From Mobula hypostoma (Eukaryota): a stretch of DNA of 64,000 nt. Positions 12,001 to 63,515 of the stretch are shown here, piece by piece. The notes beneath the pieces were generated by a model that was not told the origin of the DNA, did no database searches, and saw only the letters and a list, made by a program, of their open reading frames with translations. The translations under genes and the position numbers were made by a program. Location: contig NC_086108.1 of NCBI RefSeq assembly GCF_963921235.1, forward strand, positions 35,590,001 to 35,654,000, in the 5' to 3' direction. Within the stretch, counting starts at the first letter, position 1. Every line of letters begins with the position of its first letter.

Positions 12001-12700
12001 GCTGGAGACCAGAGGCGAGGCTGGAGGCTGGAGGCGAGGCTGGATGCTGGAGACTAGAGGCGAGGCTGGAGAATAGAGGCGAGGCTGGAGAAGAGAGGTG
12101 AGGCTAGAGGCTGGAGACTTGAGGTGAGGCTGGAGACTAGAGGTGAGGCTGGAGGCTGGAGGCTGGAGACTAGAGACAAGGCTGGAGTCTGGAGACTAGA
12201 GTCTACAGGCTCGAGGCTAGGCAAGAGACCAGGCGAGGCTTGGCAGGAGGCTGGAGACGAGATTAGAGGCGAGGCTGGAAGCTGGAGGCTGGAGACTAGA
12301 GGCGAGGCTGGAGACTGGAGACTGGAGACTGGAGACTGGAGACTAGAGGCTAGAGGCGAGGCTGGAGCCTGGAGGCTGGAGACTAGAGGCAAGGCTGGAA
12401 GCTGGAGACTAGAGGCGAGGCTGGAGGCTGGAGACTAGAGGCGAGGCTGGAGGCTTGGCTTGGCAAGAGTCTAGAGGCTAGAGGCTGAAATCTACAGGCT
12501 GGAGGCTTGGCTTGGCAAGAGTCTAGAGGCTAGAAGCTGAAGTCTACAGGCTCGAGGGTAGGCAAGAGACGAGGCAAGGCTTGGCAGGAGGCTGGAGATG
12601 AGACTAGAGGCGTGGCTGGAGACTAGAGGCAAGGTTGGAGGCTGGAGGCTGGAGACTAGAGGCAAGGCTGGAGGCTGGAGGCTGGAGACTAGAGGCAAGG
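1..12700. repeat. Complex purine-rich satellite of G(G/A)CT(G/A)GA 7-mers and GGCGA-type 5-mers, with higher-order repeats
   Basis: Continuous mosaic of GGCTGGA, GACTAGA, GACTGGA, GGCTAGA with GGCGA, GACGA, GGTGA, GGCAA. About 20 copies of a ~55-bp landmark cassette (GTCTACAGGCTCGAGGCTAGGCAAG...). Runs off the left edge of the window. Confidence 0.97.
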
Positions 12701-13246: not shown

Positions 13247-14122
13247 TACTTGTACCGGGCTGGAAGCCTGAGAAGTATTTATTCGTCATATATGCCGGGA
13301 AAGCACTAGATCCTTTTTCTTTGCTCTCCTCTGTTTTCTGTTATAAGAACGTGTTTGTCTCATATCCAGACTGAGTATCTCTCTTTACTCATTTCTGTTC
13401 TATGTAGCTTACGTCATAACAGGCTAACAGTGATTCTACAATACAGGTTCCTCGAAGAACCAGGGCCAGGACAGCTTGGGGTCAAATAATATTACATCAG
13501 TGCTCTCACATTTCAGTCTTCTCAAGGATGCCAGCTCATTTCCTAATATTTCTTTTCAATTACCTAAAAAGGTATTACATACACAAACTACACAATCCAA
13601 TTGCAATGAAAGGTCAGGTGAGAGTAGGTACAGTACCGATAGAAAATGATGCTGGAGAAATTGTAATGGGAGATAAGGAGATGGCGTAGGAACTGAACGA
13701 GTATTTTGCATCAGTTTTCACGGAGGAAGACATCAACAGTATACCGGACACTCAAGGGTGGCAGGGAAGGGAAGTGTGCGCAGTCACAATTACGACAGAG
13801 AAAGTACTCAGGAAGCTGAATAGTCTAAGGGTAAATAAATCTCCCGGACCAGATGGAATGCACCCTCGTGTTCTTAAGGAAGTAGCTGTGGAGATTGCGG
13901 AGGCATTAGCGATGATCTTTCAAAAGTCGATAGATTCTGGCATGGTTCTGGAGGACTGGAAGATTGCAAATGTCACTCTGCTATTTAAGAAGGGGGCAAA
14001 GAAGCAAAAAGAAAATTATAAACGCAAACAACAGGAATTCTGCAGATGCCGGAAACTCAAGCAACACACATCAAAGTTGCTGGTGAACGCAGCAGGCCAA
14101 GCAGCATCTATAGGAAGAGGCG

Positions 14123-14158
14123 CAGTCGACGTTTCAGGCCGAGACCCTTCGTCAGGAC
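14123..14158 (-). ncRNA. Minimal type I hammerhead ribozyme motif (antisense arm)
   Basis: Exact reverse complement of 14173-14208. Confidence 0.8.
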
Positions 14159-14172
14159 ACTGACACACACAG

Positions 14173-14208
14173 GTCCTGACGAAGGGTCTCGGCCTGAAAC
14201 GTCGACTG
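14173..14208 (+). ncRNA. Minimal type I hammerhead ribozyme motif
   Basis: GTC-CTGACGA-AGG(GTCTCGG)CCT-GAAAC-GTC^GAC: CUGANGA core, helix II, GAAA, palindromic ACGU helix III and GUC cleavage triplet, as described for Penelope-like element hammerheads. Confidence 0.8.
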
Positions 14209-16469
14209 CGCCTCTTCCTATAGATGCTGCTTGGCCTGCTGCGTTCACCAGCAACTTTGATGTGTGTTGAAAAGAAAATTATAGACCTGTTAGCTTGACA
14301 TCGGTGGTTGGGAAGTTGTTGGAGTCGATTGTCAAGGATGAGGTTACAGAGTACCTGGAGGCATATGACAAGATAGGCAGAACTCAGCATGGATTCCTTA
14401 AAGGAAAATCCTGCCTGACAAACCTATTACAATTTTTTGAGGAAATTACCAGTAGGCTAGACAAGGGAGATGCAGTGGATGTTGTATATTTGGATTTTCA
14501 GAAGGCCTTTGACAAGGTGCCGCACATGAGGCTACTTAACAAAATAAGAGCCCATGGAATTACGGGAAAGTTACATACGTGGATAGAGCGCTGGCTGATT
14601 GGCAGGAAACAGAGAGTGGGAATAAATGGATCCTATTCTGGTTGGTTGCTGGTTACCAGTGGTGTTCCACAGAGGTCCGTGTTGGGGCCGCTTCTTTTTA
14701 CATTGTACATCAACGATTTGGATTATGGAATAGATGGCTTTGTGGCTATGTTTGCTGATGATACGAATATAGGTGGAGGGGCCGGTAGTGCTGAGGAAAC
14801 AGAGAGTCTGCAGAGAGTCTTGGATAGATTGGGAGAATGGGCAAAGAAGTGGCAAATGAAATACGATGTTGGAAAGTGTATGGTTATGCATTTTGGCAGA
14901 AGAAATTAATGGGCAGACTATTATTTAAATGGGGAGAGAATTCAAATTCCTGAGATACAACAGGACTTGGGAGTCCTCGTGCAGGATACCCTTAAAGTTA
15001 ACCTCCAGGTTGAGTCGGTGGTAAAGAAGGCGAATGCAATGTTGGCATTCTTTTCTAGAGGAATAGAGTATAGGAGCAGGGATGGGATATTGAGGCTCTA
15101 TAAGGCGTTGGTAAGACCTCACTTGGAGTACTGTGGGCAGTTTTGGGCTCCTTATTTAAGAAAGGATGTGCTGACATTGGAGAGGGTACAGAGAAGGTTC
15201 ACTGGAATGATTCCATGAATGAGAAGGTTAATATATGAGGAACGTTTGTCCGCTCTTGGACTGTATTCCTTGGAGTTTAGAAGAATGAGGGGGTCCTCAT
15301 AGAAACATTTCGAATGTTGAAAGGCATGGACAGAGTGGATGTGGCAAAGTTGTTTCCCATGATGGGGGAGTCTAGTACAAGAGGGAGTGACTTAAGGATT
15401 GAAGGGTGCCTATTCAGAACAGAAATGCAAAGAAATTTTTTTAGCCAGAGGGTGGTGAATCTATGGAATTTGTTGCCATGGGTAGCAGCGGAGGCCAAGT
15501 CATTGAGTGTATTTAAGGCAGAGATTGATAGGTATCTGAGTAGCCAGGGCACCAAAGGTTATGGTGAGAAGGCGGGGGAGTGGGACTAAATGGGAGAATG
15601 GATCAGCTAATGATAAAATGGTGGAGCAGACTCAATGGGCCGAAAGGCCAACTTCTGCTCCTTTGTCTTATGGTCTTATGGTCTAAGGCTGAAAGTCGAC
15701 TGTTCTTTTCAGTTGTGCAGGTGTTACACATACCACCCACCAGTCACTAATTCAAAGGTAGGAATGAGCACCAATGAAGCTTTTATCAGAATATCTTGAG
15801 CCAACTCTGGGAACCTAACGCACATCTCCCATTCTCTTTAATCCAGTATTGTCTTCAAAGTAAATAAACTACAGTAGTTTCCACGAAGCAATGAGAAAAA
15901 TCAAATTCAGAGAAACCATTAATAAGGCAGGAAGTTGTCAGTCAATTCTTCTAGTTAATTATATGATCAGTGGCCCGAAGGCACCATCCTGCTGCTTCAA
16001 CAGACTTTTGAAAGAAAGCATTGTTTGCAATATCAAGATGAAGAAATTCTCTGCAGATGTCTATACATTAACAACGTATAATGATTGCAATATACAATAT
16101 ATGCTCTAAGGACAAAGTGTCTGGACTGAGGTGACGTGAGGGCATCATAATCTGTCATCTCAACCTCAAAACCACAGAGGTGAGGAAATGCTAAGCATGC
16201 CATAGTTTGCGGCAGAAGACTACTTTTTCCATGAGGGAGGAAAGTAGTCAGCAATTGCTTTCTTAGTGAAGAAGTGACAATACTATATATAAACAAATAA
16301 AGTTAAAGCCAAAAATGTTAAAAAATACTGGAAATACTCAACATGTAAGGAAGCATCTGTGAAAGAGAACCATAGATAGCCTATCATAAACTTGGTTCAT
16401 GTGCAATGCTATCTACTTAAAGAGTTTGTAGAAAGATCAAGAGAATAAACTACAAGATGCTCTAAAAAA

Positions 16470-17685: not shown

Positions 17686-18502
17686 AAGATTTCAAAGGTT
17701 TCAAAGGTGCATTTAATGTCAGAGAAAAATGTATACAATATATATCCTGAAATGCTTTTTCTTTGCAACCAAAAATGAAAACAGAGGAGTGCCCCAAAGA
17801 ATGAATGACAGTTAAATGTTTGAACCCTAAATCCCCCCTCAGCTCCCCCCTCCCACGTGTAAGCAGCAGTAAAGCAACAATCCCCCCTCCCCCACCAACA
17901 AAAAAAATCAGCACAACCCACCGAGCACTCAAGCGTGCAGCAAAGCATTAATAAAAACACAGACTTGCAGTACCCAAAGGTTACTCAATCACCCCATATT
18001 CAACATACCACAGGCTCTCTCTCTCCCTAATAAAGGAAAAAGGGGTGTCCCCATTTCGCAGCAAGAGGGGAGACATAACAAACAACTCGCTGACTTACTA
18101 TGTTAAAAGTCTGTTGCGATGCTTTTTTCGAGCTCTGTGCCCAAAGAACTTGGGTCTCTGGGCACACAGCCAGCAGCCAGCTTGCTAATTTTGATCTTCC
18201 ATCTCCCACGACACACCGTTTCCTGCAGATGCATCGACTACGAGTCTGCCTGCCTCTAGAGCCATGAAATCCCGGAACTCTGAGGGCAAGCTAGTCTTCT
18301 AAGCCGCGTCCTTGGTATAACAGAGAACGGCCAGCCGTGAAACCCTGAGAGCAGGTCCCATTCCCGCAAAGAACCGAAGTCAGCGTGTAACTCCAGGTCA
18401 GGGTCTTCAAAAGAACCCTGAAAGGGAAAAATGGAGATATTAAAGATAAAAATAGAGCTGTTTCCGAAGATGCAGGCAAAGGAGTCACCATTGTCTCCTT
18501 AG
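17686..18502 (-). mobile_element. Non-coding non-autonomous retroposon with (TTTGAAAC)n-like tail
   Basis: Interrupts a CR1 3'UTR; 6-bp TSD CTCTCA at 17680-17685 and 18503-18508; G-rich 3' body similar to 37381-38139. Confidence 0.75.
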
Positions 18503-19245
18503 CTCTCAGTCCCAATCTCCTGCTTTCTCCCTGTATTCCTTCATTCCCTGACCAATCCAGAATCTATCAACCTCTACCTTGAATATATATGAAGACTTGG
18601 TCACCACAGCCACCTGAGGCAATGAATTCCACAGATTCATCACTCTCTGGCTAACGAAATTCCCCCTCATCTCCTTTCTAAAAGGGCACTCCTCTGTTCT
18701 GAGACTGTGTCCTCTGGTCATAGCCTCTCCTACCATAGCAAAGATCCTCTCCACATCCACTCTATCAGGGCCTTTCACTACTCGATAGGTTTCAATGATG
18801 TCACCCCTCATTCTTCTGAATTCCAGTGAATACAGGACCAGAGCCATCAAACACTCTTCACATGACAAGATGTTCAATCCTGGAATAATTTTCGTGAATC
18901 TCCTTTGAACCCTGTCCAATGTCAGCACATCCTTTCTACAATAAAGGGTCACAAACTGCTCTCAATACTATGTGAGGCTTCACCAGTGCTTTATAAAGCC
19001 TCAACATTGCAACATCGCTTTTATATTCCAGTCCTCTTGAAATGAATGCTTTCCTCACCCTAGACTCAACCTGTAAATTAACCTTTAGGGAATCCTGCAC
19101 AAGGAATCCCAAGTCCCTTTGTGCCCCAAATTTCTGAATTTTCTCTCCATTTAGATAATAGTCTTGCCTTTTGTTTCTTCTACATAAGTGCATGACCATA
19201 CATTTCCTGACACTGTATTTCATCTGCCACTTCTTGGCCCATTCT

Positions 19246-19375
19246 CTGACGAAGGGTCTCGGCCTGAAACGTCGACTGCGCCTCTTCCTATAGATGCTGC
19301 TTGGCCTGCTGCGTTCACCAGCAACTTTGATGTATGTTGCTTGAATTTCCAGCATCTGCAGAATTCCTGTTGTTT
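19246..19375 (+). mobile_element. Penelope-like single-arm insertion starting at the hammerhead core
   Basis: Matches the reverse complement of the left arm of the 60254 copy. Starts at CTGACGA and ends with the tail ...GAATTCCTGTTGTTT. No TSD; ~12 bp of host CR1 are missing. Confidence 0.85.
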
Positions 19376-20343
19376 AAGTATTTCTATAGCCTCGCTACTT
19401 CTTCAAAACTACCTGCCCCTCCACTTATCTTCATATTGTCCGCAAACTTTGCAACAAAGCGTTCAATTTCATCATTCAAGTCATTGACACATAATGTGAA
19501 AAGAAGTGGTCTCAGCAGAGACCCCTGTGGAACACCACTGATAACTGGCAGCCAACCAGAAAAGGCTCCTTTTATTCCCATTCTTTGTCTCCTGCCAATC
19601 AGCCACTGCTTTATCAATAGGCTCTCAACTTGTTAAGTAGCCTTGTGTGTGACACCTTGCCAAAGGCCTTCTGAAAATCCAAGTACACAATATCATGCAG
19701 TTCTCTTTTGTCCATCCTGCTTGTTATTTCTTCAAAGAATTCCAATAGGTTTGTCAGGCAAGATTTTTCTCTTGAGGAAACTATGCTGACTACAGCCTAT
19801 TTCATCATGTGCCTTAAAGTACCCTGAGACCTCATCTTTAATAATAGACTCCAAGGTCTTCCCAAACACTGAAGTCAGACTAATTGACCTACAGTTTCCT
19901 TTCTTCTGCCTCTCTCCCTTCTTGATGAGTGGAGTGACATTTGCAATTTTCCAGTCTTCCTGAACCATTCCAGAATCTAGTGAACTTGAAAGATCAATAC
20001 TAATGCCTCCACAATCTCTTCAGCCACCTCTTTCAGAACCCTGGGTTGTATACCATCTGGACTCGGTGACCTACCTTCCTTCAGACCTTTCAGTTTCCTA
20101 AGAACCTACTCCCTATTAATGGCAGCTTCACACCCTTATGGCACCTGACACTCTGGAACTTCCACCATACTGCTAGTATCTTCCACAATGAAGATGGATG
20201 CAAAACATGTATTTAGTTTGTCCCCCATTACTTCTTCTCCAGCATCGTTTTCCAGCAGTCTGATTTCCCCTCTCACCTCTCTTTTACACTTTATGTAGCT
20301 AAAGACACTTTCAGTATCCTCTTTAGTATTATTGGCTACCTTA

Positions 20344-20674
20344 CGAGGGGTGATTGATAAGTTCGTGGCCTTAGTTAGAATGAGATGAGTTGTACAGCTC
20401 TCATTACATGCACACGCAGTTTACCTCTTTGAGTGAAAATTCAGGAAGTTTGAAGTTAATAACTCATCTCCTTCTACTTTAGGCCATGAACTTACTAGTC
20501 ATCCCTGCCGTGGACCGCTTTCTGGAGGTCCAAGACGTCAACTTCTACAAAGAAGGGATTCGTATGCTCCAGGACCACTGGTCTAAGTGTGTAAATGTAG
20601 GAAAAATAAATGTGCTAGGTTTTCTAAAATTGACACCTTCTACCTTAGGCCACGAACTTATCAATCACCCCTCG
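20344..20674 (+). mobile_element. Non-autonomous mariner element with TA TSD
   Basis: TIRs CGAGGGGTGATTGATAAGTTCGTGGCC; TA on both sides; residual transposase C-terminus FYKEGIRMLQDHWSKCVNVG; extra internal TIR copy at ~20461-20506. Confidence 0.92.
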
Positions 20675-21612
20675 TACTTTTGTATTCCATCTTTTCCTTA
20701 ATGATTTTTTAGTTGCCTTCTGTTGGTTTTTGAAAGCTACCCAATCTTCTAACTTCCCACTAATTTCTGCTCTATTATATGCCCTCTCTTTGGCTTTTAT
20801 GTTGGCTTTGGCTTCTCGTTAGCCATGGTTGTGTCATCTTGTCTTTGGAATATTTCTTCCTGTTTGGGATGTGTATATCCTGTTCCTTCTGAATTGCTTC
20901 CAGACACATCCTGACCCTGGCACCTGGGAGGCAACATAACATCTGAGGGTCGCTTCCGCATCCACAGAATCGGCTTTCTGCCTCTCTAGTATGGAATCAC
21001 CCATCACTACTGCACTCCTCTTCTTCCCACTTCCCCGCTGAGCCACAGTGCCAAACGCAGTGCCAGGGAGCCACTTGCTGAGGCTTCGCCCTGTTATTTC
21101 TCCCCACCTTCCAACAGTATCAAAAGCAGTATACTTATTATTGAGGGGAATGGCCACAGGGTTAGTCTACACTGGCTGCTTATTCCCCTTCCCTCTCCTG
21201 GCTGTCACTCAATTACCTGCTTCCTGCAATGTAGGGGTAACTACCTCCCTGTAGCTTCTATCTATCACCTCCTCATTTTGTTCATGAGCTGAATGTCCAT
21301 CGAGCTGCCACTCCAGTTCCTTAACACTGTCTCTATGGAGCTGCAGCTTGATGCACTTTGTACAGAAGTAGTTACCAGGGAGACTGGAGCTCTCCCAAAG
21401 TTCCCACATCTCACACAAAGAACATGCCACTAACTCTAAATCCATTCTCGATACTCTAGCTATACACTAATACACAAAGAAGGAGAATAAAAAATCTCCT
21501 GGGAAACTTAGAGCCTCCACCTGTTCTTATCAAAACTTGTTGAGCTAAGCCTTCTACTCTAACCCTGGCCCACTCACCCCAATGGCTGCTCTGCATATAC
21601 CTTGTTCCTTTT

Positions 21613-23877: not shown

Positions 23878-25800
23878 CGGGAAGAGCTAAGAGACTGCAA
23901 GGGTAAAAAGACCCTGATGGGAGTTATATACTGGCCTCTGAACAATAGCAAAGATGTGGGCTACCAATTACAATGAGAGATAGGAAATGCATGTCAAATG
24001 GGCAACGTTGCAATAGTCCTAGGGTATTTCAATATGCAAGTAGATTGGGAAAATCAGGTCAGTGCTGGGTCTCAAGAGGGAGGATTTGCAGAATGCCTAT
24101 GAGATGGCTTTTTAGAGCAGCTTGTGGTTGAGCCCAGAAGGGGCTCAGCAATTCTGAATTGGGTGTTGTGTAATGAACTGGAACTAATAAGAGAGCTTCA
24201 GGTAATGGAGCATTTAGGAGTGAGTGATAATAATAGGATAGAATTCACTCTGCAATCTGAAAGGGAGAAAGCAAAGCCAGGTGAATCAGTATTACAATGG
24301 AATGAAAGGGAATTCTGGCATGGTTCCAGAGGTCTGGAAAATTACAAATGTCATTCCACTCTTCAAGAAGGGAGAGAGGCAGAGGAAAGGAAATTATAGA
24401 CCAAATAATCTTAACCTCAGTCATTGGGAAAGTGTTGTAGTTAATTGTTAAGGATGTGGCTTAGGGGTATCAGAATGCACATGATAAAATAGGCTGAAGT
24501 CAGCATGATTTCCCTACTTGCCATGCCTGATTAATCTGTCGGAATTCTTTGAAGAAATAACAAGCAGGATAGACATAGGAGAGCTGGTGGATGTTGTGTA
24601 CTTGGATTTTCTGAAGGTCTTTGACAAAGTGCCACACGTGAACCTGCTTAACAAGGTTAGAGCCCATGGTATTACAGAAAAGACACTAGCATGGATAGAG
24701 CAGTTTCTGATTGACAGGAGGCAAAGAACAGGAATAAAGGGAGCTTTTTCTGGTTGGTGCCAGTGGCTAGTGTTGGTCCACAGGGGTTTGTGTTGAGACC
24801 ACTTCTTTTTGTGTTATACATCAATGATTTGGATGAATGAATTGATGGCTTTGTGGCCAAGTTTGCGGATAATATAAAAATAAATAGAGGGTCAGGTTGT
24901 GTTGACGAGGCAGAGAGGCTGCATAAGAACTTGGATACTGTAGATTAGGAGGATGGGCAAAGAAGTGGCAGATGGAATATAGTGTTGGGAAATATATGGT
25001 CACGCAATTTGGTGGAAAAAATAAAAGTGTAAACTATTTTCTAAATGGAGAGCAAGTTCTAAAATCAGAGGTGAAAAGGACTTGGGAGTTCTCATGCAGG
25101 ATTCCCTAAAGGTTAATTTGCAGGTTGAGTCTGTGGTGAGGAAGGCAAATGCAAAGTTAACATTCATTTTAAGAGGTTTACAACGTCAAAACAAGGATGT
25201 AATGCTGAGGCTTTATAAGGCACTAATGAAGCCTCACTTGGACTATTGTGACCAGTTTTGGTCCGCTTATCTAAGAAATGATGCACTGACATTCGAAAGG
25301 TTTCAAAGGAGGTTCATGAAAATTATTCCTGAATTGGAGGTTTATTATATGAGGAGTGTTTGATTGCTCCAGGCCTGTACTCACTGGAATTTAGAAGAAT
25401 GAGGTGGGATCTCATTGAAACAAATTGAAAGTTCAAAGGCCCCGATAGATTGGATGTGGAGAGGATGATTACTATGGTGGATGTCTCTAGGACCAGAGGG
25501 CTCAGCCTCAGAATGCAGGAATGTCCATTTAGAATGGAGATGAGAAGTAATTTCTTTATCCAGAGAGTGATGAATCTGTGGAATTTGTTGCCACAGGCAG
25601 CTAAAAAGACCAAGTCATTGAGTATATTTAATGCAGACCTTAACAGATACTTGATGAGTCAGGGCATGAACAGTTACAAGGAGAAGGCAGGATAATGGGG
25701 CTGAGAAGGAGATGGATCAGCCGTGGTAAAATGCTGGAGCAGACTCGATGGGCCAAATGGCCTAATTCTGCTCCTATATTTCATGGTTTTATGATCTTAT
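23878..25800 (+). mobile_element. Decayed CR1 LINE with an internal deletion joining APE to RT
   Basis: VEPRRGSAILNWVLCNE, VYLDFLKVFDKVPH, RVMNLWNLLP; deletion at ~24310; CR1 tail. Confidence 0.92.
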
Positions 25801-32855: not shown

Positions 32856-33329
32856 AAAGAATATGGACTATGCCATAATGAAATACAAAAGGTGCGATAT
32901 GAGTATCCAAGTCATGGATGAGGATATACCAACTTCAGTAAATAATATGACAAGCAAACTTGGTAAACAGATGAAGGAAATAAAATTGTCTGGGATCTAT
33001 TCACCATTTGGCTGGAATCATATCTAGTGCAAAGGAAAGTAATTGTGGTTGCTAGAGAGAAATTACATCAGCACCAGGGGGTCTTCAGTGTCCTCAGTAC
33101 TCCTAATCTGCTGGGTCAGTGCCACTCCTTCCTTGGATTTGCACAAGCACCAGTTTTCCCTGTACCTGCTGGACTGTTGACTGTTGGGAACTTTGGCACA
33201 AATGCTTTGTAAGTTTGCGCAGATGGTTCTTGACCCATTGAGTTCTTCCAGCATTCTGCTCATGTTCTGCACAGGTTTATGTTCCGATTTCACTTTAAAA
33301 AATAATAGAGCCATTTCAACAGTTTATAT

Positions 33330-41760: not shown

Positions 41761-42452
41761 ATCCTTTCCAGATTTATCATGGCTTGGTATGGCAAATGCT
41801 CTGCCTGTCACTGCAAGAAACTGCAAAGAATTGTTGATGCAGCTCGGCATGTTACAGAAACCAGCCTCGTCTCCATGGAATCTACCGATAGTTCTCACCG
41901 CCTTGGTAAAGCAGACAACATAATTAAAAACACCACCTGCCCCAGACACTCACAATTCTCCCATTCCCTACCCCGTTTGGGCAGAAGATACAAAAGCCTG
42001 AAAGTACGAATGTACCACCAGCCCCAAGGATAGCTTCTACCCTGCTGGTATAAGACCATTGAACAGACCACTTGTATGATAACATGAACTCTTGACCTCG
42101 CAATCTACATCATCGTGGTTTTGCATCTTATTGTCCACCTGCCTTGCACTTGCTCTGTAATTGTAACACAATATCGTGCATTCTGTCACTGCTTCTCCCT
42201 TGTACTACCTCGATGCACAGATGTGATGAAATGATCCATACGGATGGATCAGTATCTGTGATGACAAAAAGTAAATTTCACGTACTAATTTGTCCTTTCG
42301 GGGTTGGAGTCACGGATGATAAAGTGAACATTTTAATAACTGTGTGTTGATTGGGATGTGATATCACTACTTAGTGAAGTTGGGGGAGGGTAATATATCC
42401 ATTAGAACAGTGACAAGGGAGGTAAGGAGAGAGAAGGAGTTGCTTTCCCAGA

Positions 42453-43040
42453 AAAACAAACACAAAATGCTGGAGGAACACAGCAGCTCAAGCAGCAACT
42501 ATGGAGAGGAATAAACAGTCGATGTTTCGAGTCTATACCCTTCATTAACATTGGAAAGGAAGAGGGAATAAGGTGGGGAGGGGAGGGAAAGGAGTAGAAG
42601 CTGATCGATGAAGCCAGGTGAGGGGGAAGGTAGGTGGGTGAGGCGGATGAAGTGAGAAACTGAGAGGTGATAGGTGGAAGAGGTAAAGGGCTGAAGAAGA
42701 AATCTGATAGGAAAAGAGAATGGACGTCAAGAGAACAGAAGGGTGTCCCTTTAGAACAGAGTTGTGGAATTCATTGCCATAGACGGCTGTGGAGCAGAGG
42801 TTGATAGGTTCTTGATTAGTAAGGGTGTCAAAAGTTATTGGGAGATGGAAGAAGAATAGGGTTAAGATAATAAATAAGCCACTATCGAATGACAGAGCAC
42901 ATTCGATTGGCTAAATGGCCCATCTGCTCCTATGTTCTCTGGTCTTATGGAAAGGAGGAGGGGCACTGAAGGGAGGTGTTAGGCAGGTGAGGAGAAGTGA
43001 AGTGATAAGAGAGTGGCCAATTACCAGAATTTAGAGAAAG
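42453..43040 (-). mobile_element. Older Penelope-like 3' region with decayed hammerhead, split by a CR1 tail (~42735-42950)
   Basis: ACAAAATGCTGGAGGAAC...CAGTCGATGTTTCG...ACCCTTCATT is homologous to the young copies; pyrimidine-rich 3'UTR on the minus strand. Confidence 0.7.
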
Positions 43041-43235: not shown

Positions 43236-43400
43236 CACACAAAATGCTAGAGGAACTCAGCAGGCCAGGTAGCATCTAGGAAAAGAATACAGTCAACATT
43301 TCGGACCAAAACCCTTCAGCAGAGCTTGTCCTGATGAGTTCCTCCAGCATTTTGTGTGTGTTGCTCAGATTTCCAGACTCTGCAGATTTTCTCTTGTTTC
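43236..43400. mobile_element. Older Penelope-like inverted mini-insertion
   Basis: CACACAAAATGCTAGAGGAACTCA pairs with TGAGTTCCTCCAGCATTTTGTGTG; tail on the right arm only. Confidence 0.8.
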
Positions 43401-48383: not shown

Positions 48384-48698
48384 AAGTAAAGGCATCCGTT
48401 AATCTTGCGAGACCATGGACCTGTGCCTGGAAAGTCTTCACTCTCCAGGGCGCAGACCTGGGCAAGGTTGTATGGAAGACCAGCAGTTGCCCATGCTGCA
48501 AGTATCCCCTCTCCATGACACCGATGTTGTCCAAGGGAAGGGCATTAGGACCCATACGGCTCGGCACCAGTAAAACCGCAGAGCTCTGTGTGATTAAGTG
48601 TCATGCTCAAGGACACAACACGCTGCCTCGGCTGGGGCTCGAACTCACGACCTTCAGATCGCTAGCTGAATGCCTTAACCACTTAGCCAGGTACCCAC
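48384..48698 (-). mobile_element. tRNA-head + CORE-like + RTE-like-tail SINE
   Basis: A box TGGCTAAGTGG, B box GAGTTCGAGCC, GTGTCCTTGAGCA; 12-bp TSD AACTACT(T/C)CTTA. Confidence 0.85.
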
Positions 48699-48780
48699 AA
48701 CTACTCCTTACCTCATGTCCATTTGCAATTGATCAAGATTCTCCCACTAGTGGAAATATCTCAACACCTACCCTAACACG

Positions 48781-49459
48781 GGAGGAGAGGATGGTGGCGT
48801 GACGCAGCTCGCAGCGGCCACTCCTGTGGTGATATCTATTATCTGACAAGTTGGGTGCCGTGCACAATCCTGATTTGATGGAGACAGATGTGAGAGCACG
48901 GCGGAACATCTGGTGAAACTTCTGAAATGCCTGTTTCGCTGCCGCTGCTACTGTGTGGTCCGAAATCTCCGGAGGGGAAGGCCCCCGAGTTCTCAGCTTT
49001 GCTTGTTGCTCGGTGGCCGGGGTGGGGTTGCAGCGCTCGGCAGAGGATGGTGCTCGGTGCTCGGTGTCGGAGGGCTGGTCGGAGGCTCGAAGTTTTCGGA
49101 CGGACTCAGAGTCCGCTGCTGTCGGGTGCTTCCAGTGGTGCAGCATCAGCAAGTTTGCGGCGCTTGGAGGTTCATGACAGGGAGAGTTTTGCCCTTCTAC
49201 CGTCTGCGTGAGGTGATGGGGCTATCGGGACTTGAGACTTTTTTTTACCGTGCCCATGGTCTGCTCTTTATCAAATTTCAGTATTGCTTTGCACTGTTGT
49301 AACTATATGTGATAATTCTGTGGTTTTGTCAGTTTTAGTCTTGGTTTGTCCTGTGTTTCTGTGATTATCATTCTGGAGGAACAATGTATCATTTTTTAAT
49401 GCATGCATTTCTAAATGACATTAAACGAGGACTGAGTGTCCTCATAATCTAATCTAATC
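48781..49459 (+). mobile_element. Non-coding retroposon with GAGGAGAGGATGGTGG head and (AATCT)n tail
   Basis: Homologue of 33330-34012; sits inside an old minus-strand CR1 fragment (~48130-49500). Confidence 0.8.
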
Positions 49460-49511
49460 ATATGTCCTATATCTTTCACTGAGATTACAACTCATTCTTC
49501 AAGATTATATA

Positions 49512-49870
49512 CATTCAGTGGCCACTTCCTGAGGTACCTCCTTTACCTAATAAAGTGGCCTCTAAGTGTATGTTTGTGGTCTTCGGTTGCTGTATGCCAT
49601 GCACATCAAGGTTCGATGGGTTATGCATTCAGAGATGCTCTTCTGCACACCACTGTTGTAAAACGTGTCTTTTTGAGTTACTGTTGCCTTCCTGTCAACT
49701 TGAAACAGTATGGTCATCTTCCTCTGACTTCTCTCATTAACAAGCATTTTTGCCCACAGAACTGCCACTCGCTGCATTTTATTTTGTTTTTCACACATTT
49801 CTTTGTAAACTTTAGAGTTTTGTGCTTGAAAATTCCAAAAGATCTGCAGTTTTTGAGATACTTAAACCTA
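49512..49870 (-). mobile_element. Truncated Tc1-like non-autonomous element
   Basis: 57-bp terminal palindrome 49512-49568 flanked by TA; transposase remnant DRKATVTQ..GVQKSISEC; homologous to 59591-60161. Confidence 0.8.
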
Positions 49871-49879
49871 CTCTCCCAC

Positions 49880-50720
49880 ACTTCCATCAGTTCGAGTGCA
49901 CAAGAATGCAAGAAGCTGCAAAGAGTAGTAGACTGAATCCGACACATCATAGGCTCATCCCTCCTCAGCATCAAAAGTTTCTACCTGAGAAGCTGCTCCA
50001 AGAAGAAGAATCTGTCATCAAAGATACGCACCATCCGGGTCATGCCCTGTACTCACAGCTATCATCGGGCAAGACCTACACAAGTCTGAAGCTCCTCACC
50101 ACGAGGTTCAAGAACAGCTACTTCCCTTCAACCATGTGTTTCTTGAAACTAATTGCACAACATAATCACGACCTCAGTATAACAACACCATAGCCATGTT
50201 GACCACTATGCACTACGGTCGACTTTTTTCTTTGAATTGTGTTCTTTCTGTATAATTTATAAGGTAATTTAAGTTTCTCTTATGAATGTTGTGCATCTGA
50301 TGCTATGTGTGGGCACGTGGCCAAGTGGTTAAGGCATTGGACCAGCTACCTGAAGGTCGTGAGTTCGAGCCCAGCCGAGGGAACGTGTTGTGTCCTTGAG
50401 CAAGGCACTTAATCACACATAGCTCTGCGACGACACTGGTGCCAAGCTGTATGGGCCCTAATGCCCTTCCCTTGGACAACATCAGTGTCGTGGAGAGGGG
50501 AGACTTGCAACATGGGCAACTGCTGGAATTCCATACGACCTTGCCCAGGCCTGCGCCCTGGAGAGTGAAGACTTTCCAGGAGCAGATCCATGGTCTCGCA
50601 AGATTAACGGATGCCTTAAAGATGCTATGTGCCCGTGAGGCTGCTACAAGTTAGTATTCCAGGGCACCTGTGCATACTGCAATTGTGCAGATGACAACAA
50701 CCTCAACTCTGACTTTGAGC
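49880..50720 (+). mobile_element. Rex1/Babar-like 3' fragment split by a SINE
   Basis: IKDTHHPGHALYSQLSSGK..TTRFKNSYFPST. Confidence 0.8.
50310..50620 (+). mobile_element. tRNA-head + CORE-like + RTE-like-tail SINE
   Basis: A box TGGCCAAGTGG, B box GAGTTCGAGCC, TGTGTCCTTGAGCAAGGCACTTAA; 11-bp TSD GATGCTATGTG at 50299-50309 and 50621-50631. Confidence 0.9.
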
Positions 50721-52289: not shown

Positions 52290-54380
52290 GAATTCCTGGG
52301 AGAAATTCAAAAAACACAGGATAGATAAATCCCAAAGAGGTACTATTCTAAAGGAAGGATGACGCAACCGTGGCCAACCAAGGGAGTCAGGAGCAACGTA
52401 AAAGCAAAAGAGGGGGCGTATAAAGAGCAAAAATTAGTGGGAAGTTAGAGGATTGGGAAGCTTCTAAAAAAACAACAGAAGACAACTAAAAAAAAAACAT
52501 AAAGGAGGAAGAGATGAAATATGAAAATAAGCTAGCCAATACTATAAAAGAGGATACCAAAAGATTTTTCAGTTATGTAAAGAGTAAAAGAGAGGTGAGA
52601 GACTGCTGGAACATGACTCTGGAGAAGTAGTAATGGGGTACGAGGAAATGGCAGATGAACTCAAGTATTTTTCATCCCTCTTCTTTAAGGAAAAAGGCAG
52701 CAGTGTGCCAGAAATTTGAGAGTGTCAGGGAGCAGAGTAAGTGCAATTACAATTACTAGGGAAAAGGTGCTTGGGAAGCTGAAAGGCCATAAAATAGATA
52801 AGTCACCTGGACCAGATGGACTACACCTCAGGGTTCTGCAAGAGGTAGCTGAAGTGATTGTAGAGGCATTAGTAATGATCTTTCAAGAGTCACTAGATTC
52901 TGGAATGGTTCCTAAGGACTGGAAAATTACAAATGTCACTTTACTCTTTAAGAATGAGGGGAGGCAGAAGAAAGGAAATTAGAGGCTAGTTCGTCTGCTC
53001 TCAGTGGTTGAGAAGATGTTGGAGATGATTGTTAAGGATGAGGTCTCAGGATACTTGGAGGCATCTAATAAAATAGGCCAACGTCAGCATGATTTCCTGT
53101 AAGGGAAAGTATTGCTTGACAAACTGTTGGATTTCTTTGAAGAAATATCAAGCAGAATAGATGACAGAAAATTGGAGGACGTTGTGTAGTTGGATTTTCA
53201 GAAGGCATTTGACAAGGTGCCACACACGAGGCTGCTTAACAAGATGAAGAGCCCACAATATTACAGAAAAGATAGTCGCATGGATAGTGCATTGGCCGAT
53301 TGGCAGGAAGCCAAGAGTGGGAATAAAAGGAGCCTTTTCTGGTTGGCTGCTGGTGACTAGTGATGCTCTACAGGAGGTTGTGTTGGGACTGCTTTTTTTC
53401 ATTACATGTCAATAACTTGGATTATGGATTTGATGGTTTTTGGCCAAGTTTGCAGAAAATACTGTACAAGGATTGATGGAGGAGGAGGTAGTTTTGAAGA
53501 GGTAGACATGCTACAGAAGGACTTAAACAGATCAGGAGAATGGGCAGATGGAATACAATGTTGGGAGGTCTATGGTCATGCACTTTGGTAGAAGAATAAA
53601 AGGGGTAGACTGTTTTCTTAATGGAGAGAAAATTCAAAAATCTGAGGTGCAAAGGGACTTGGTAGTCCTCATGCAGGATTCCCTGAAGGTTAAATTGCAG
53701 GTTGAGTTGGTGGTGAGGAAGGCAAATGTACTCTTAGCATTTATTTTGAGAGGACTAGAATATAAAAGTAAGGATGTAATACTGGAGCTTTGTAAGGCAC
53801 TGGTGAGGCATGACTTGGAGTACTGTGAGTAGTTTTGAGACCCCTTATCTAAGAAGGAATGTGCTGACATTGGAGAAGGTTCAGCGGAAGTTCACAAATA
53901 TGATTCTGGGAATAAACATGTTATGATATAAAGTGTGTCTGATGGCTCTGAGCCTGCGCTTGCTGGGATTTAGAGGAATGGCGGGGGGATTTCATTGAAA
54001 CCTATCAAATGTTGAAAGGCCTTGAATGAACGGATGTGGAGAGGATGTTTCCTACAGTGGGGGAATCTAGGACTGGAGGGCATCGGCTCAGATTAGAGGG
54101 ATGCCCATTTAGAATGGAGATGAAGAGGAATCTCTATAGCCAGGAGGTGGTGAATCTGTTGAATTCATTGCCACACATAGCTGTGAAGACCAGGTCATTG
54201 GGTTTATTTAAGGCGGAAGCTGATAGGTTCTTGATTAGTCAGGGCGTGAAAGGTTACAGGGAGAAAGCAGGAGAATGGGATTGAAAGGGAAAATTGATCA
54301 GCCTTGATGAAATGGCGGAGCAGACTCAATGGACTGATTAGCCTAATTCTGCTGTATCTCTTATGATCTTATGGTTTTAT
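52290..54380 (+). mobile_element. Decayed CR1 LINE (RT)
   Basis: KSPGPDGLHLRVLQE, QDSLKVKLQVE, VVNLLNSLP; TCTTATG-type tail. Confidence 0.93.
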
Positions 54381-55749: not shown

Positions 55750-55990
55750 CAAATTAAAATAAAATATAAAATTCTGCAAATATTTAACAGGTCAAACAAC
55801 ATTTGTGTCAGGAGACATAAGAGAAACGGGGTTGTTTCAGGTTAAAACCTCTTCAACATCCCCCTCCACACAAGCTAGTTTTGTCCCCTTTCCAGTTCTG
55901 AAGAGTCTTTGACCTGAATCATTAGCTCTGTTTCTTTTCCCACAGATGTGGCCCGACTTCCTGAGTATGTCCTGCCGTTTCAGTTTTTGA
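55750..55990. mobile_element. Ancient Penelope-like inverted remnant
   Basis: TTCAGGTTAAAACCTCTTCA pairs with TGAAGAGTCTTTGACCTGAA; outer arms weakly complementary. Confidence 0.55.
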
Positions 55991-56764
55991 ATTAGTTTTC
56001 CCCAGGGTAATGCCGGGGAATGCCAGCATGACTGGGTCCCGACGTTGGATCTCATGAAAAATTCAGCAACGGATCATGGTGAGAGATGTGGTGCCATTTG
56101 TCATTTAGTCAGTCCTGGTGTCATGATGGAAGCGCCCAGGACCATGCTTTATTTACCTCTGTGGGTGATGTCCCCATTTCCTTTTGGAACTACTGACCAG
56201 AGGCAACAAGATTTAACCCATTGTGTTTGGAGGCCAGATAAACCAAATATAAGGAGAACTTCACTGATCTGGCAGGCAGCTGAAGCAACGTAATTGTTAT
56301 CCACCTTACATAGTAAAAAGATATAATGGAGGCGTGACACTAGCAGACAGGGAACTAAATGGAATGTGTATGGCAGACAAAGAATGAAATGGAACGTAAC
56401 CTGATTGCTTATTTTGTTGCTGTGCCTGCCCTAAAGAATTTCAGTTCATAAAGATAACCATGCTACACGGCATGAACATTTAGTTCTTGAAACTCACTCA
56501 AAAATCCCAGGTGTTTAATGCATGTTAGATTTGCTGATGTAATGTGAGAATCCTACTCACTCTTCTGTGTAGTAATGCCCTTTGATTTATGATAACACCC
56601 ACATCAACAGACAGCAGAGTGGAATGTGGGAACTGGAGGAGGCCACTTCTGGAGGCTTGTTCTGCTACTTAATTAAATCATGATTGGCCGGTATTTTAAT
56701 TGCCTGTTTTAGTCCATAAAGTTTGACAAATATAATTCAATCCAATTTAATTCTTAAATTTTTA

Positions 56765-59530: not shown

Positions 59531-59590
59531 GTTTTCTTTTACGGCCTGTCATTCTTCGCTGTTGTCAATACCAAGTTACATTTCACCACA

Positions 59591-60161
59591 CACTCAGTGG
59601 CCATTTTATTAGGTACACCCCTGCACCTGCTCAGTAATCCAAGTATCTAATCAGCCAATCATGTGGCAGCAATTTCATGCATAAAAGCATGCAGACATGG
59701 ACAAGAGGTTCAGTTGTTGTTCAGACCAAACATCAGAGCGAGGAAGAAATGTGATCTAAGTGACTCTGACCGTGGAATATTTGCTGGTGCCAGATGGGAT
59801 GGTTTGAGTAGCTCAGTAACTGCTGATCTCTTGTTCCCCACACCCCCCCCCACACAGGACAGTCTCTAGAGCTTACAGAGAATGGTGTAAAAAACAAAAA
59901 AAAAATCCAGTGAGCGGTAGTTCTGTGAGCGAAAGTGCCTTCTTAATGAGCAAGGTCAGAGGCCAGACTGGTCCAAGATGTTCGGAAAGTGACAGTAAGT
60001 CAGATAGCCACATGTTACAACAGTGGTGTGCGGAAGAACATCTCTGGATGCACAACACGTGGAACCTTCAAGTGGATGGGTGAAAGCGGCAGAAGACAAC
60101 GGATGTGCACTCAGTGGCCACTTTATTGGGTATCTCCTGTGCCAAATAAAGCGGCCACATG
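59591..60161 (+). mobile_element. Tc1-like non-autonomous element
   Basis: TIR CACTCAGTGGCCA(C/T)TTTATT at 59591, again at 60108 and inverted at ~60145-60161; N-terminal transposase remnant KKCDLSDSDRGIFAGAR...TADLL. Confidence 0.85.
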
Positions 60162-60253
60162 TAAATCTCAGTGTTAGGGAAGGTTGAACCTACCGAACTC
60201 AAAAGACAGAACAGAATGCTGCCACTGGGCAAAACCAGCATCTTGACACAAGT

Positions 60254-60469
60254 AACAGGAATTCTGCAGATGCTGGAAATTCAAGCAACATACATCAAAG
60301 TTGCTGGTGAACGCAGCAGGCCAAGCAGCATCTATAGGAAGAGGCGCAGTCGACGTTTCAGGCCGAGACCCTTCGTCAGGACAAAGGGTCTCGGCCTGAA
60401 ACGTCGACTGCGCCTCTTCCTATAGATGCTGCTTGGCCTGCTGCGTTCACCAGCAACTTTGATGTATGT
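60254..60469. mobile_element. Penelope-like mini-insertion: perfect 86-bp inverted repeat plus one-sided tail, 14-bp TSD
   Basis: Arms 60288-60373 and 60384-60469; 34-nt extension on the left only; TSD ATCTTGACACAAGT at 60240-60253 and 60470-60483. Confidence 0.88.
60347..60382 (-). ncRNA. Minimal type I hammerhead ribozyme motif
   Basis: Minus strand reads GTCCTGACGAAGGGTCTCGGCCTGAAACGTCGACTG. Confidence 0.8.
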
Positions 60470-61144
60470 ATCTTGACACAAGTTGCAGCTTTCTCGGGTT
60501 GTGAGTTGCAATGAATTGACCTCAGTGGCGACTGAACAAAATGAGAGATGGAATTTCTTGCAGTTAGCTTTTCATGTCAGTTTTGTGCTGAATATGAGCA
60601 GTCTGAAAAATATTCTCTGAAATTGCACCGATTCAGAGGGTGTCGATGAGCTGAGATAACTGCCAAACGACTCAGTCAGCCGGCATTGACGACATTACTG
60701 CTTCAAACTGTTATTCTATCACAAGTCTAATCTGACTGCTTCAGAGATTTCAAAACAGAGTTGACCAGAAAAAGAACCACATAGATACAAGAGAGCCAAA
60801 ATATGTTATCTGTACTTTTCCAACTTGAAAGAACATTAAGATTATTTCAAACGCTCTGTTCTTTTCTCAGAGAACATGAGACCACAGTTCAGAAGAAACT
60901 GGTTCACTTAATTTTGGCAGAGTGATCAGCATTAAGATATGTAATTTGTTTGGAGGAAGTACATTCCTTAGCTTTCCAGTCAACTTTATAAAAAAACAGC
61001 AACAGCATCATTCCTTTCCAGACTTGTGCTTTCATATATTTCATTAGATATAAACCAATGCACTCCCTCCCACTCTCTGGCTATCTAACAACCCTGCTGG
61101 TCCATTGAACCTCTTTAGACAACTGGTCAACCAGTGAGATAATA

Positions 61145-63515
61145 TAAGACCATAAAATGGCCAGAATTAGGCCATCTGGCCCATAGAGTCTGCTCTGCCA
61201 TTCAATCATGGCTGATCCATTTTTTTTTGCTCCTCCTCAACCCCAGTTCCGGGCCTTCTCCCCACAATCTTTGATGCCATGTCCAATTATGAACCTTTCA
61301 ATCTCTGCCTTAAATACACCCAACGGCCTGGACTCCACAGATGCATGTGACAACAAATTCACCACCCTTTGGCTAAAGAAATTTCTCTGCAACTCTGTCT
61401 TAAAAGGGTGCCCCTCTATCCTGAGGCTGTGCCCTCTTGTGCTAGACTCTCCCACCATGGGAAACATCCTTTCCACATCTACCAAAAAGCTTGAACATCT
61501 AGATATTAAGAAAGAGGATGTGCTGGAGCTTTTGAAACGCATCAAGTTGGATGAGTCACTGAGACCAGATGAGACACACCCCAGGCTACTGTGGGAGGCG
61601 AGGGAGGAGATTTCTGAGCCTCTGGCGATGATCTTTGCATCATCAATGGGGATGGGAGAGGTTCCGGAGGATTGGAGGGTTGCAGATGCTGTTCCACTAT
61701 TCAAGAAAGGGAGTAGAGTTAGCCCAGGAAATTATAGACCAGTGAGTCTTACTTCAGTGGTTGGTAAGTTGATGGAGAAGATCCTGAGAGGCAGGATTTA
61801 TGAGCATTTGGAGAGGCATAATATGATTAGGAATAGTCTGCACGGCTATCTGAAAGGCAGGTCGAGCCTTACGAGCCTGATTGAGTTTTTTGAGGTTGTG
61901 ACTAAACACATTGATGAAGGAAGAGCAGTAGATGTAGTGTATATAGATTTCAGCAAGGCATTTGAAAAAGTACCCCATGCAAGGCTTATTGAGAAAGTAA
62001 GGAGACATGGGATCCAAGGGGACATTGCTTTGTAGATCTAGAACTGGCTTGCCCACAGAAGGCAAAGAGTGGTTGTAGACGGATCATATTCTGCATGGAC
62101 GTTGGTCACCAGTGGTGTGCCTCAGGGATCTGTTCTGGGACCCCTACTCTTCGTGATTTTTATAAATGACCTGGATAAGGAAGTGGAGGGATGGGTTAGT
62201 AAATTTGCTGTCAGAGGTTACACCAGGACATTGATAGGATGCAAAACTGGGCTGAGAAGTGACAGATGGAGTTCAACCCAGATAAGTGTGAGGTGGTTCA
62301 TTTTGGTAGGTCAAATATGATGACAGAATATAGTATTAATGGTAAGATTCTTGGCAGTGTGGAGGATCTTGGGGTCCGAGTCCATAAGACACTCAAAGCT
62401 GCTACGCAGGTTGACTCTATGGTTAAGAAAGCATACAGTGCATTGGCCTTCATCAATCATGGGATTGAGTTTAGGAGCCGAGAGGTAATGTTGCAGCTAT
62501 ATGGGACTCTGGTCAGACACCACTTGGAGTAATATGTTCAGTTCTGGTCGCCTCACTATAGAAGGATGTGGAAACCATAGAAAGGGTGCAGAGGAGATTT
62601 ACAAGGATGATGCCTGGATTGGGGAGCATGCCTTATGAGAATAGGTTGAGTGAACTTGGCCTTTTTTCCTTGTAGCGACGGAGGATGAGAGGTGACCTGT
62701 CAGAGGTGTATAGGATGATGAAAGGCATTGATCGTGTGGATAGTCAGAGGCTTTTCCCCTGGCTGAAATGGCTAGTATGAGAGGACACAGCTTTAAGGTG
62801 CTTGGAAGTAGGTACAGAGGAGATGTCGGGGTAAGTTTTTTTACGAAGAGAGTGGTGAGTGGGTGGAATGGGCTGCCGGTGACGGTGGTGGAAGCAGATA
62901 CAATAGGATCTTTTAAGAGACTCCTGAATAGGTACATGGAGCTCAGAAAAATAGAGGGCTATGGGTAATTTGAGGTAATTTCTAAGGTAAGAACATGTTC
63001 ATCACAGCTTTGTGGGCCGAAGGGCCTGTATTGTGATGTAGGTTTTCTGTGTTTACTGTGTCTAGCCTGTCAACATCCGAAAGGTTTCAATGAGATCCCC
63101 CCTCATCTTTCTGAGTCCCAGCGAGTACAAGCCCAGAACCATCAAACGTTCCTCGTATGATAACCCTTTCATTCCTGGAATCATCCTTGTGAACCTCCTC
63201 TGAACCCTCTCCAATGTCAGCACATCTTTTCTAAGATGAGGATCCCAAAACTGTTCACAATACTCAAGGTGAGGCCTCACCAGTGCCTTAAAAAGCCTCA
63301 GTATCACATCACTGCTCTTGTATTCTAGACCTATTGAAATGAATGCCAACATGGCATTTGCCTTCCTCACCACCAACTCGACCTGCAAGTTAACCTTTAG
63401 GGTGTTCTGCACAAGGACTCCCAAGTACCTTTGCATCCCAGATTTTTGGACTTTCTCTCCGTTTAGAAAGTAGTCTGCACATTTATTTCTACTACCGAAG
63501 TGCATGGCCATGCAT
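61145..63515 (-). mobile_element. CR1 3' part split by an antisense CR1
   Basis: ORF 63062-63511 (HFGSRN..RPHLEYCEQFW) continues at 61480-61240 (VERMFPMVGES); tail at ~61145. Confidence 0.9.
61483..63056 (+). mobile_element. 5'-truncated CR1 (RT) nested antisense in another CR1
   Basis: [52 protein letters not shown]. Confidence 0.93.

What the first reader, a model, noticed from the sequence alone, without database searches (positions are those of the whole stretch)
60240..60483. Second independent fold-back copy; both arms share copy-specific variants
Seen: same architecture and again a 14-bp TSD, but a different junction (86-bp stem, right arm lacking CTGA). Both arms here read ACATACATC, whereas both arms of the 14-kb copy read ACACACATC. 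Inferred: the hairpin is built anew at each insertion from a single RNA source (twin priming or template switch), not copied from one master palindrome.
Basis: partly seen in the sequence, partly recalled or inferred. Interest (0 to 1): 0.75.

Follow-up and report, generated by a model that had tools for sequence, protein, structure and literature searches.

The report
Fold-back Penelope retroelement stub insertion
This is a real, recently inserted 216-base hairpin-shaped stub of a Penelope-like jumping gene, a shape already described for that class, and its copies do seem to get their hairpin junction at each insertion.

Summary
Confirmed: 14-bp duplication (60240-53/60470-83), perfect 86-bp stem, 10-nt loop. 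A relative about 2% diverged carries the empty site with the 14-mer once, so the insertion and TSD are real. The insert is two head-to-head, 5'-truncated ends of a very abundant repeat with a minimal hammerhead motif; only one arm has a 34-nt tail. That is the published 'inverted pLTR + tail + TSD' form of Penelope-like elements; no parent ORF was found. 'Copy-specific variants' is overstated: it is one site, and an identical single-arm copy at 19.2 kb shares it; chance concordance is 0.25-0.47. 'Built anew at each insertion' is supported by better evidence: identical sequence occurs as a fold-back with TSD and as a single arm with a target deletion, and public contigs show 13 other distinct junctions (some recurrent). 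'Single RNA' is untested, and classic twin priming does not fit. Best model: both target strands are nicked, each primes a cDNA from one of two adjacent start sites, and the cDNAs are joined by microhomology; snap-back self-priming is the close rival. The scan noted the same pattern before in other genomes.

The parts
60240..60253 (+). left copy of the 14-bp target site duplication
   Evidence: present once at the empty site in run X5 (table 8, record 26)
60254..60287 (-). 34-nt 'tail', present only on this arm; about 7-8 nt shorter than the tail of the 14-kb copy and of the family consensus end
   Evidence: table 7 (loose ends pile at 60254 and 60257)
60254..60382 (-). left arm: 129-nt 5'-truncated pLTR-like end plus tail
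   Evidence: many contigs continue upstream of 60382 (table 7, 324 contigs in X1)
60349..60382 (-). minimal type I hammerhead motif: 3-bp helix I, CUGANGA box, one extra nucleotide, 4-bp helix II, GAAA, palindromic CG; predicted cut between 60352 and 60351
   Evidence: features as listed in PMC4209133; activity not tested
60374..60383 (.). 10-nt loop = head-to-head junction; reads as a 3-nt overlap (60380-82) shared by both arms plus one G>A at a CpG (60383)
60384..60469 (+). right arm: 86-nt inverted copy, no tail, hammerhead core incomplete
   Evidence: right junction confirmed with 0 differences by X1 and X2 contigs 60447-61100
60470..60483 (+). right copy of the target site duplication
14007..14283 (.). 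sister fold-back copy: 14-bp TSD, 41-nt tail, 97-bp stem, 14-nt filler loop, both arms starting at the same base; inserted in a CR1-like LINE RT region
   Evidence: host LINE collinear with three other copies once the insert and one TSD are removed
19246..19375 (+). single-arm copy with tail, identical to the 60-kb left arm over 126 nt, no TSD, on a short deletion of its host LINE
   Evidence: 12- and 17-nt gaps against two paralogues; less clear against two others
43237..43399 (.). older-subfamily fold-back; here the tail-bearing arm is the more 5'-truncated one; arms differ at 3 of 32 aligned sites; no TSD left
42452..42554 (-). older-subfamily tail-less copy, continuing upstream into a pyrimidine-rich stretch

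Best explanation
A dead-on-arrival insertion of a Penelope-like retroelement (PLE) end, with the hairpin made during integration by two primings. Inferred steps: a GIY-YIG/RT protein from a full-length element elsewhere nicks both target strands 14 nt apart. Each 3'-OH primes cDNA on element RNA, one at the tail-end start site and one at the internal start site about 34 nt upstream. Both cDNAs stop early at the 5' side of the hammerhead and are joined head-to-head by a 3-nt microhomology (14-kb copy: by filler). Gap repair gives the TSD. Shown here: the insertion, the TSD, the asymmetric arms, the motif and the varied junctions. Taken from PMC11167929: both-strand nicking and two start sites that bound the tail. 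The copy itself is non-coding and probably inert.
For: Empty site in X5. [quoted passage not shown] Family ends pile up at two places about 30 nt apart, 60254/60257 and 60284, with A-rich flanks (table 7), as expected from two start sites and AT-rich targets (PMC11167929). Two Mobula predicted proteins stop at the same tail-less end. Minimal hammerhead: 5 descriptor hits in the window, all in this family; none with both helices in 20 shuffles; helix II paired in 16 of 16 cells across 4 distinct rows, with one-sided changes only. 13 distinct other junctions, microhomology of 2 nt or more in 5 of 13 against 14.5% expected (p = 0.03). The 43-kb copy has non-nested arms, which one cDNA folding back on itself cannot give without a later deletion.
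Against: No PLE RT or GIY-YIG ORF could be tied to this repeat: 148 of 356 open stretches of 55 aa or more were scanned and gave only LINE-type RVT_1/Exo_endo_phos hits, and the 42-aa open frame hit no PLE protein. Unlike the anole element, no ORF start sits at helix II. The 60-kb junction is equally well predicted by snap-back, and both young fold-backs have nested arms. The listed joints are the best-supported rows only (328 not shown), come from contigs, may hide inserted letters, and could include library chimeras. The 43-kb copy is old, so a central deletion is possible. The 60-kb target is only moderately AT-rich (50% within 20 nt).
Confidence: 0.5

Rival explanations
1. Same PLE origin, but one cDNA only: the truncated first strand folds back on itself, self-primes a DNA-templated second arm, and that arm is joined to the other target end before reaching the tail (self-priming / template switch).
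For: Folding the 3' end of the left arm back on the 3-nt match at 60375 predicts the observed right arm except one CpG-type G>A. Arms are identical within each young copy and nested. Self-priming was proposed for PLE inverted junctions in PMC3846280. Hairpin self-annealing with 2-bp microhomology is reported for L1 inverted duplications (10.1101/2024.12.14.628481).
Against: The implied hairpin has a 2-4-nt loop and 2-3 bp. The 14-kb copy has both arms starting at the same base with 14 nt of filler. The 43-kb copy is not nested. It does not by itself explain why tail-less ends cluster at one position (60284, 67 contigs in X1).
Confidence: 0.3
2. A non-autonomous palindromic master element (hairpin already in the source) is copied whole, from a few masters with different junctions.
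For: Listed joints have depth 14.5-185 against 4-10 for single-copy DNA, and 3 of 13 occur in both organisms A and B. One X10 contig crosses the 60-kb junction in the same register, though with only about 17 letters on the far side, below the tool's 31-letter rule. Arm concordance is expected under this model too.
Against: All 13 listed junctions differ from each other and from the two in the window. The deepest (185) is below 0.01% of the 5-6 million family depth (depth is not a copy number, and counting was capped). The identical sequence occurs as a single arm at 19.2 kb. A palindromic RNA would be a poor template (inference).
Confidence: 0.1
3. Arms arose independently or diverged and were later homogenised by conversion within the hairpin, so arm identity says nothing about insertion.
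For: Perfect inverted repeats can be corrected against each other (general knowledge, recalled).
Against: The insertion is young (absent in a relative 2.2% diverged), so there was little to homogenise. The old 43-kb copy has arms differing at 3 of 32 sites, so conversion is not keeping arms alike.
Confidence: 0.04
4. A MITE or other DNA transposon (foldback element), or an assembly artefact.
For: Short, non-coding, inverted repeat with a TSD.
Against: The inverted repeats are not terminal (34-nt one-sided tail). Ends and junctions vary, single-arm copies exist, and a hammerhead motif is present. The right junction is in raw-read contigs X1 and X2 and the empty site is in X5.
Confidence: 0.03

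Closest known systems
Complex insertions of endonuclease-positive Penelope-like elements (inverted 5'-truncated pLTR + one-sided tail + TSD; PMC3846280, PMC8557442)
   Same: Head-to-head inverted 5'-truncated copy, 30-40-nt tail on one arm, overlap at the inverted junction, short TSD, hammerhead in the repeat.
   Different: Reduced to 216 nt with no ORF; TSD 14 bp in 2 of 2 young fold-backs against 8-10 bp in the rotifer examples read; parent ORF not identified.
Poseidon element of Anolis carolinensis in vitro (PMC11167929)
   Same: Two adjacent ends bounding a tail, AT-rich flanks in the family, both strands implied to be cut and extended.
   Different: In that element the ORF starts at helix II; here that frame has no ATG and closes after 16 codons. 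The parts of that paper I read do not model how the inverted copy is formed.
Minimal type I hammerhead motifs of metazoan PLEs (PMC4209133)
   Same: CUGANGA and GAAA boxes, extra nucleotide before helix II, palindromic 15.2-16.2 pair, short helix I; that paper also notes pairs of motifs 100-700 bp apart on opposite strands.
   Different: Helix II is 4 bp with a G-U closing pair in the young subfamily (G-C in the two older copies); cleavage not tested.
Non-LTR retrozymes (PMC7229834)
   Same: Short non-coding hammerhead-bearing repeats in animal genomes.
   Different: Retrozymes are head-to-tail tandem repeats of 150-450-bp monomers with canonical hammerheads; this copy is head-to-head, has a minimal motif and a one-sided tail.
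L1 twin priming (recalled; passages in 10.1101/2024.12.14.628481)
   Same: Two cDNAs primed from the two target ends and joined by microhomology.
   Different: Twin priming inverts a non-overlapping 5' part of one RNA; here the same segment is duplicated and there is no poly(A) tail.

Membership tests
Endonuclease-positive Penelope-like element | PLE-clade RT plus GIY-YIG endonuclease ORF in full-length copies | tested here: inconclusive
   None in the window (148 of 356 open stretches scanned); the open frame hits only host proteins with an exonised copy; no genome held. A truncated copy is not expected to have it.
Endonuclease-positive Penelope-like element | Adjacent inverted 5'-truncated copy of the 3' end | tested here: met
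   family continues upstream in other copies (table 7)
Endonuclease-positive Penelope-like element | 30-40-bp tail on one end only | tested here: met
   34 nt at 60 kb, 41 nt at 14 kb; two end clusters in public contigs
Endonuclease-positive Penelope-like element | Minimal hammerhead motif in the pLTR | tested here: met
   own descriptor scan, fold, pair count; Rfam has no match at gathering or relaxed score
Endonuclease-positive Penelope-like element | Partial head-to-tail tandems in the family | tested here: met
   go-back joints such as 60379 to 60293 and 60308 to 60254 in X1, X2, X5 (table 5c); contig evidence only
Endonuclease-positive Penelope-like element | Short TSD (or target loss) from a real insertion | tested here: met
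   empty site in X5; paralogue comparison for the 14-kb and 19-kb copies
Penelope/Poseidon clade | ORF start inside the pLTR at hammerhead helix II | tested here: not met
   ACG in place of ATG and a stop after 16 codons; clade left open
Non-LTR retrozyme | Head-to-tail tandem monomers with canonical type I hammerhead | tested here: not met
   head-to-head or single copies in the window, minimal motif
MITE / DNA transposon | Terminal inverted repeats with fixed ends | tested here: not met
   one-sided tail, variable ends and junctions
Active hammerhead ribozyme | Self-cleavage, probably as a dimer or protein-assisted | not testable with these tools
   bench assay needed

The most novel reading that the evidence does not exclude
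This young, very high-copy ray family is an in vivo record of symmetric double target-primed reverse transcription: a dimeric PLE enzyme cuts both strands with a fixed 14-nt stagger, each half starts at a different one of the two RT start sites, and the two cDNAs halt at the hammerhead and are joined. It may favour near-palindromic targets that resemble its own tail, as at this site. Thousands of such copies with empty sites in close relatives would settle how PLE inverted repeats form.
Probability: 0.2. Interest if true: 0.5.

Novelty: new member of a known kind. Interest (0 to 1): 0.22.

Why it matters
The structure is ordinary for Penelope-like elements, and this copy most likely does nothing. 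The value is as material: papers read here say the making of tandem and inverted PLE insertions is still undefined (PMC8557442, PMC11167929). A young family with short complete insertions, clean TSDs, subfamily markers and empty sites in a relative 2% away allows a purely computational test of two primings against snap-back.

Tried and rejected
No whole genome is held, so 'align all genomic copies' could not be done. Pattern scans found no copy in viral contigs, metagenome contigs or prokaryote genomes. Rfam: 0 matches at gathering score in 64 kb; relaxed matches are microRNA-hairpin models hitting the palindrome, all below their gathering scores, and a non-significant UnaL2 match (E 2.8), rejected. 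Folding energy of single arms is not unusual (z -1.4 to +0.9), so the hammerhead call rests on motif anatomy. Helix II shows no two-sided compensatory change and the shuffle control is uninformative with 4 rows. Parent ORF search failed; P0003 is a repetitive chance hit. An empty allele in organism A could not be judged: depth falls to about 1 left of the insert and most joints and pieces are not shown. X10 has no cover of the flanks, so it says nothing about the locus. A splice-junction reading of the shared 5' ends was considered, because the two exonised copies begin 2 codons upstream, but the window's arms do not begin there; left open. Literature searches for this family in cartilaginous fish found no description (0 papers; 8 papers, none on it by title or listing; one search was swamped by hammerhead-shark papers); searches found no paper modelling PLE inverted copies by dual priming. 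Subscription journals and Repbase/Dfam were not searchable.

Full report
Observation. The structure is as described. An exact 14-bp direct repeat (60240-60253, 60470-60483) bounds a 216-nt insert holding a perfect 86-bp stem and a 10-nt loop; the 14-kb copy has a 14-bp repeat, a 97-bp stem and a 14-nt loop. These two are the only perfect fold-backs with a short loop beyond the satellite at the start of the window. Public contigs make the insertion certain. In run X5 (organism B) one 852-nt contig covers 60110-60239 and continues directly with 60470-61100, with 17 differences in 761 nt (2.2%), so the 14-mer is there once and the insert is absent (table 8). Runs X1 and X2 (organism A, one sample, possibly the window's source and so not independent) carry the right junction with no difference. 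The insertion is therefore younger than the A/B split, or polymorphic.

What it is. Read on the minus strand, the left arm is a 129-nt piece that begins with a minimal hammerhead motif (60349-60382) and ends in a 34-nt stretch the right arm lacks. The motif has the features listed for Penelope-like element (PLE) hammerheads in PMC4209133 (abstract, results and discussion read): both catalytic boxes, an extra nucleotide before helix II, a palindromic 15.2-16.2 pair and a short helix I. My descriptor found 5 hits in the window, all in this family, and none with both helices in 20 shuffles. Helix II pairs in 16 of 16 cells over 4 distinct rows, by one-sided changes only. Rfam does not recognise it. 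The family is very abundant: summed depth over the arms reaches 5-6 million in X1 against about 10 in the unique flank (not a copy number). Its open frame occurs inside two predicted Mobula ray proteins at 94% and 79% identity; I did not determine the window's species. Family ends cluster at two places about 30 nt apart (60254/60257 and 60284) with A-rich flanks, and many copies run further upstream than this one (table 7). PMC8557442 (12 passages) describes 5'-truncation, an adjacent inverted 5'-truncated copy and a 30-40-bp tail often at one end only as typical of PLEs. PMC3846280 (main text read) shows an insert with an inverted pLTR overlapping the direct one, a 31-bp tail and a 9-bp TSD, and proposes self-priming. 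PMC11167929 (main text and first methods read) shows that a purified PLE protein cuts and extends both strands and starts at two sites that bound the tail. Supplements were not read; the vertebrate hammerhead alignments of PMC4209133 could hold this family. I could not link the repeat to an RT/GIY-YIG ORF, so membership rests on the non-coding features, and the clade is open.

The shared variant. It is one site in the region both arms cover; the other two differences between the copies are in the tail. It is a subfamily marker: the single-arm copy at 19246-19371 matches the left arm at 126 of 126 nt, and the window's letter is 19.5% and 19.3% of depth in X1 and X2, 2.6% in X5 and 6.5% in X10. 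With arms drawn independently, two concordant copies arise with probability 0.25-0.47. The observation fits a single source but does not show it, and a master palindrome predicts it too.

Is the hairpin built at each insertion? Probably yes. The three young copies show three outcomes: microhomology junction with TSD (60 kb), filler junction with TSD (14 kb), and a single arm on a short loss of host LINE sequence (19 kb). Of 15 joints shown table 5 (328 more not shown), 13 join left arm to right arm with no listed insert; I set aside one in the flanking repeat and one with 22 letters between. All 13 differ from each other and from the window's two. Microhomology is 2 nt or more in 5 of 13 (14.5% expected, p = 0.03) and 3 nt in 3 of 13 (4.5% expected, p = 0.018). 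Against: their depths are 14.5-185 where single-copy DNA is 4-10, 3 of 13 occur in both organisms, and one X10 contig crosses the 60-kb junction in register (too few letters to count as bridging). Some junctions therefore recur, by microhomology bias, later duplication, minor masters or library chimeras. None dominates: the deepest is below 0.01% of family depth. The rows are a selected top, and the tool capped its counting.

Mechanism. Best reading (0.5): nicks on both strands 14 nt apart each prime a cDNA, one from the tail-end start and one from the internal start; both stop near the 5' side of the hammerhead and are joined. In the window 5 of 8 arms begin within the first 4 nt of the motif. 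This explains the one-sided tail, the two end clusters, and the old 43-kb copy whose tail-bearing arm is the more truncated one. The close rival (0.3) is snap-back of one cDNA: it predicts the 60-kb junction except one CpG-type change, and both young fold-backs are nested. Classic L1 twin priming (recalled; passages of 10.1101/2024.12.14.628481) does not fit as such, since the same segment is copied twice. A master palindrome (0.1), later conversion (0.04; old arms differ at 3 of 32 sites) and a DNA transposon or artefact (0.03) are weaker. The enzymatic steps are inferred from the anole element, not shown for this family.

Comparison and novelty. It works like, and very probably is, a truncated PLE insertion. 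It is not a retrozyme as defined in PMC7229834 (passages) and not a MITE. PMC8969392 (passages) lists inverted pLTRs and short 3' extensions as routine for curators. Searches found no description of this ray family and no dual-priming model for PLE inverted copies, within an open-access library. Two earlier notes of this scan reached the same class in other genomes; my reading was recorded before that. Verdict: real, ordinary for its class, useful as material for an open mechanistic question. Interest 0.22.

Noticed in passing
window 60234-60489 (empty target): The empty target of this copy is near-palindromic (8 of 10 arm matches, background 0.3%) and holds a 9-mer identical to the element's tail (background 2.3%); the 14-kb target shows neither. 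Post hoc, 1 of 2 sites.
   Followed up: partly
window 60245-60253 and 60470-60479: Both TSD ends partly match, in register, the element sequence that would continue past each arm end (5 of 7 and 5 of 8 positions); both arms here stop a few bases short of the modal family ends. Possible pairing of target and template at priming.
   Followed up: partly
window 14021-14061: The 14-kb copy differs from the 60-kb and 19-kb copies at three sites, all G versus A on the element strand, two of them in the tail stem-loop; could be RNA editing of the template or chance.
   Followed up: no
P0001, P0002: Two Mobula predicted proteins (one a STARD3NL isoform) contain the element as an inserted segment with the same start and end, suggesting a splice acceptor just upstream of hammerhead helix I, as reported for the Drosophila virilis element.
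   Followed up: partly
window 55755-56000: Very old, decayed fold-back of a related subfamily; arms align weakly (1 of 500 shuffles scored as high).
   Followed up: partly
window 33220-33258: Short decayed fragment of the same family (nhmmer E 0.006).
   Followed up: no
window 1-12700: About 12.7 kb of strand-biased satellite built from 5-7-nt units with higher-order repeats.
   Followed up: no
window ~59590-60130: Repeat with short inverted ends just left of the insertion, also present near 49518-49713; high depth in all four runs; looks like a non-autonomous DNA transposon (recalled resemblance).
   Followed up: no
window 13600-15600, 18500-20130, 24100-25700, 52700-54300, 61187-62560: Several decayed LINE copies with RVT_1 hits (CR1-like by recall); two of the three young hammerhead copies sit inside them.
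   Followed up: partly
window 20342-20676 and 48389-50617: A 30-bp perfect inverted repeat 275 nt apart and a 248-nt, 90% inverted pair 1.7 kb apart: probable DNA-transposon remnants.
   Followed up: no
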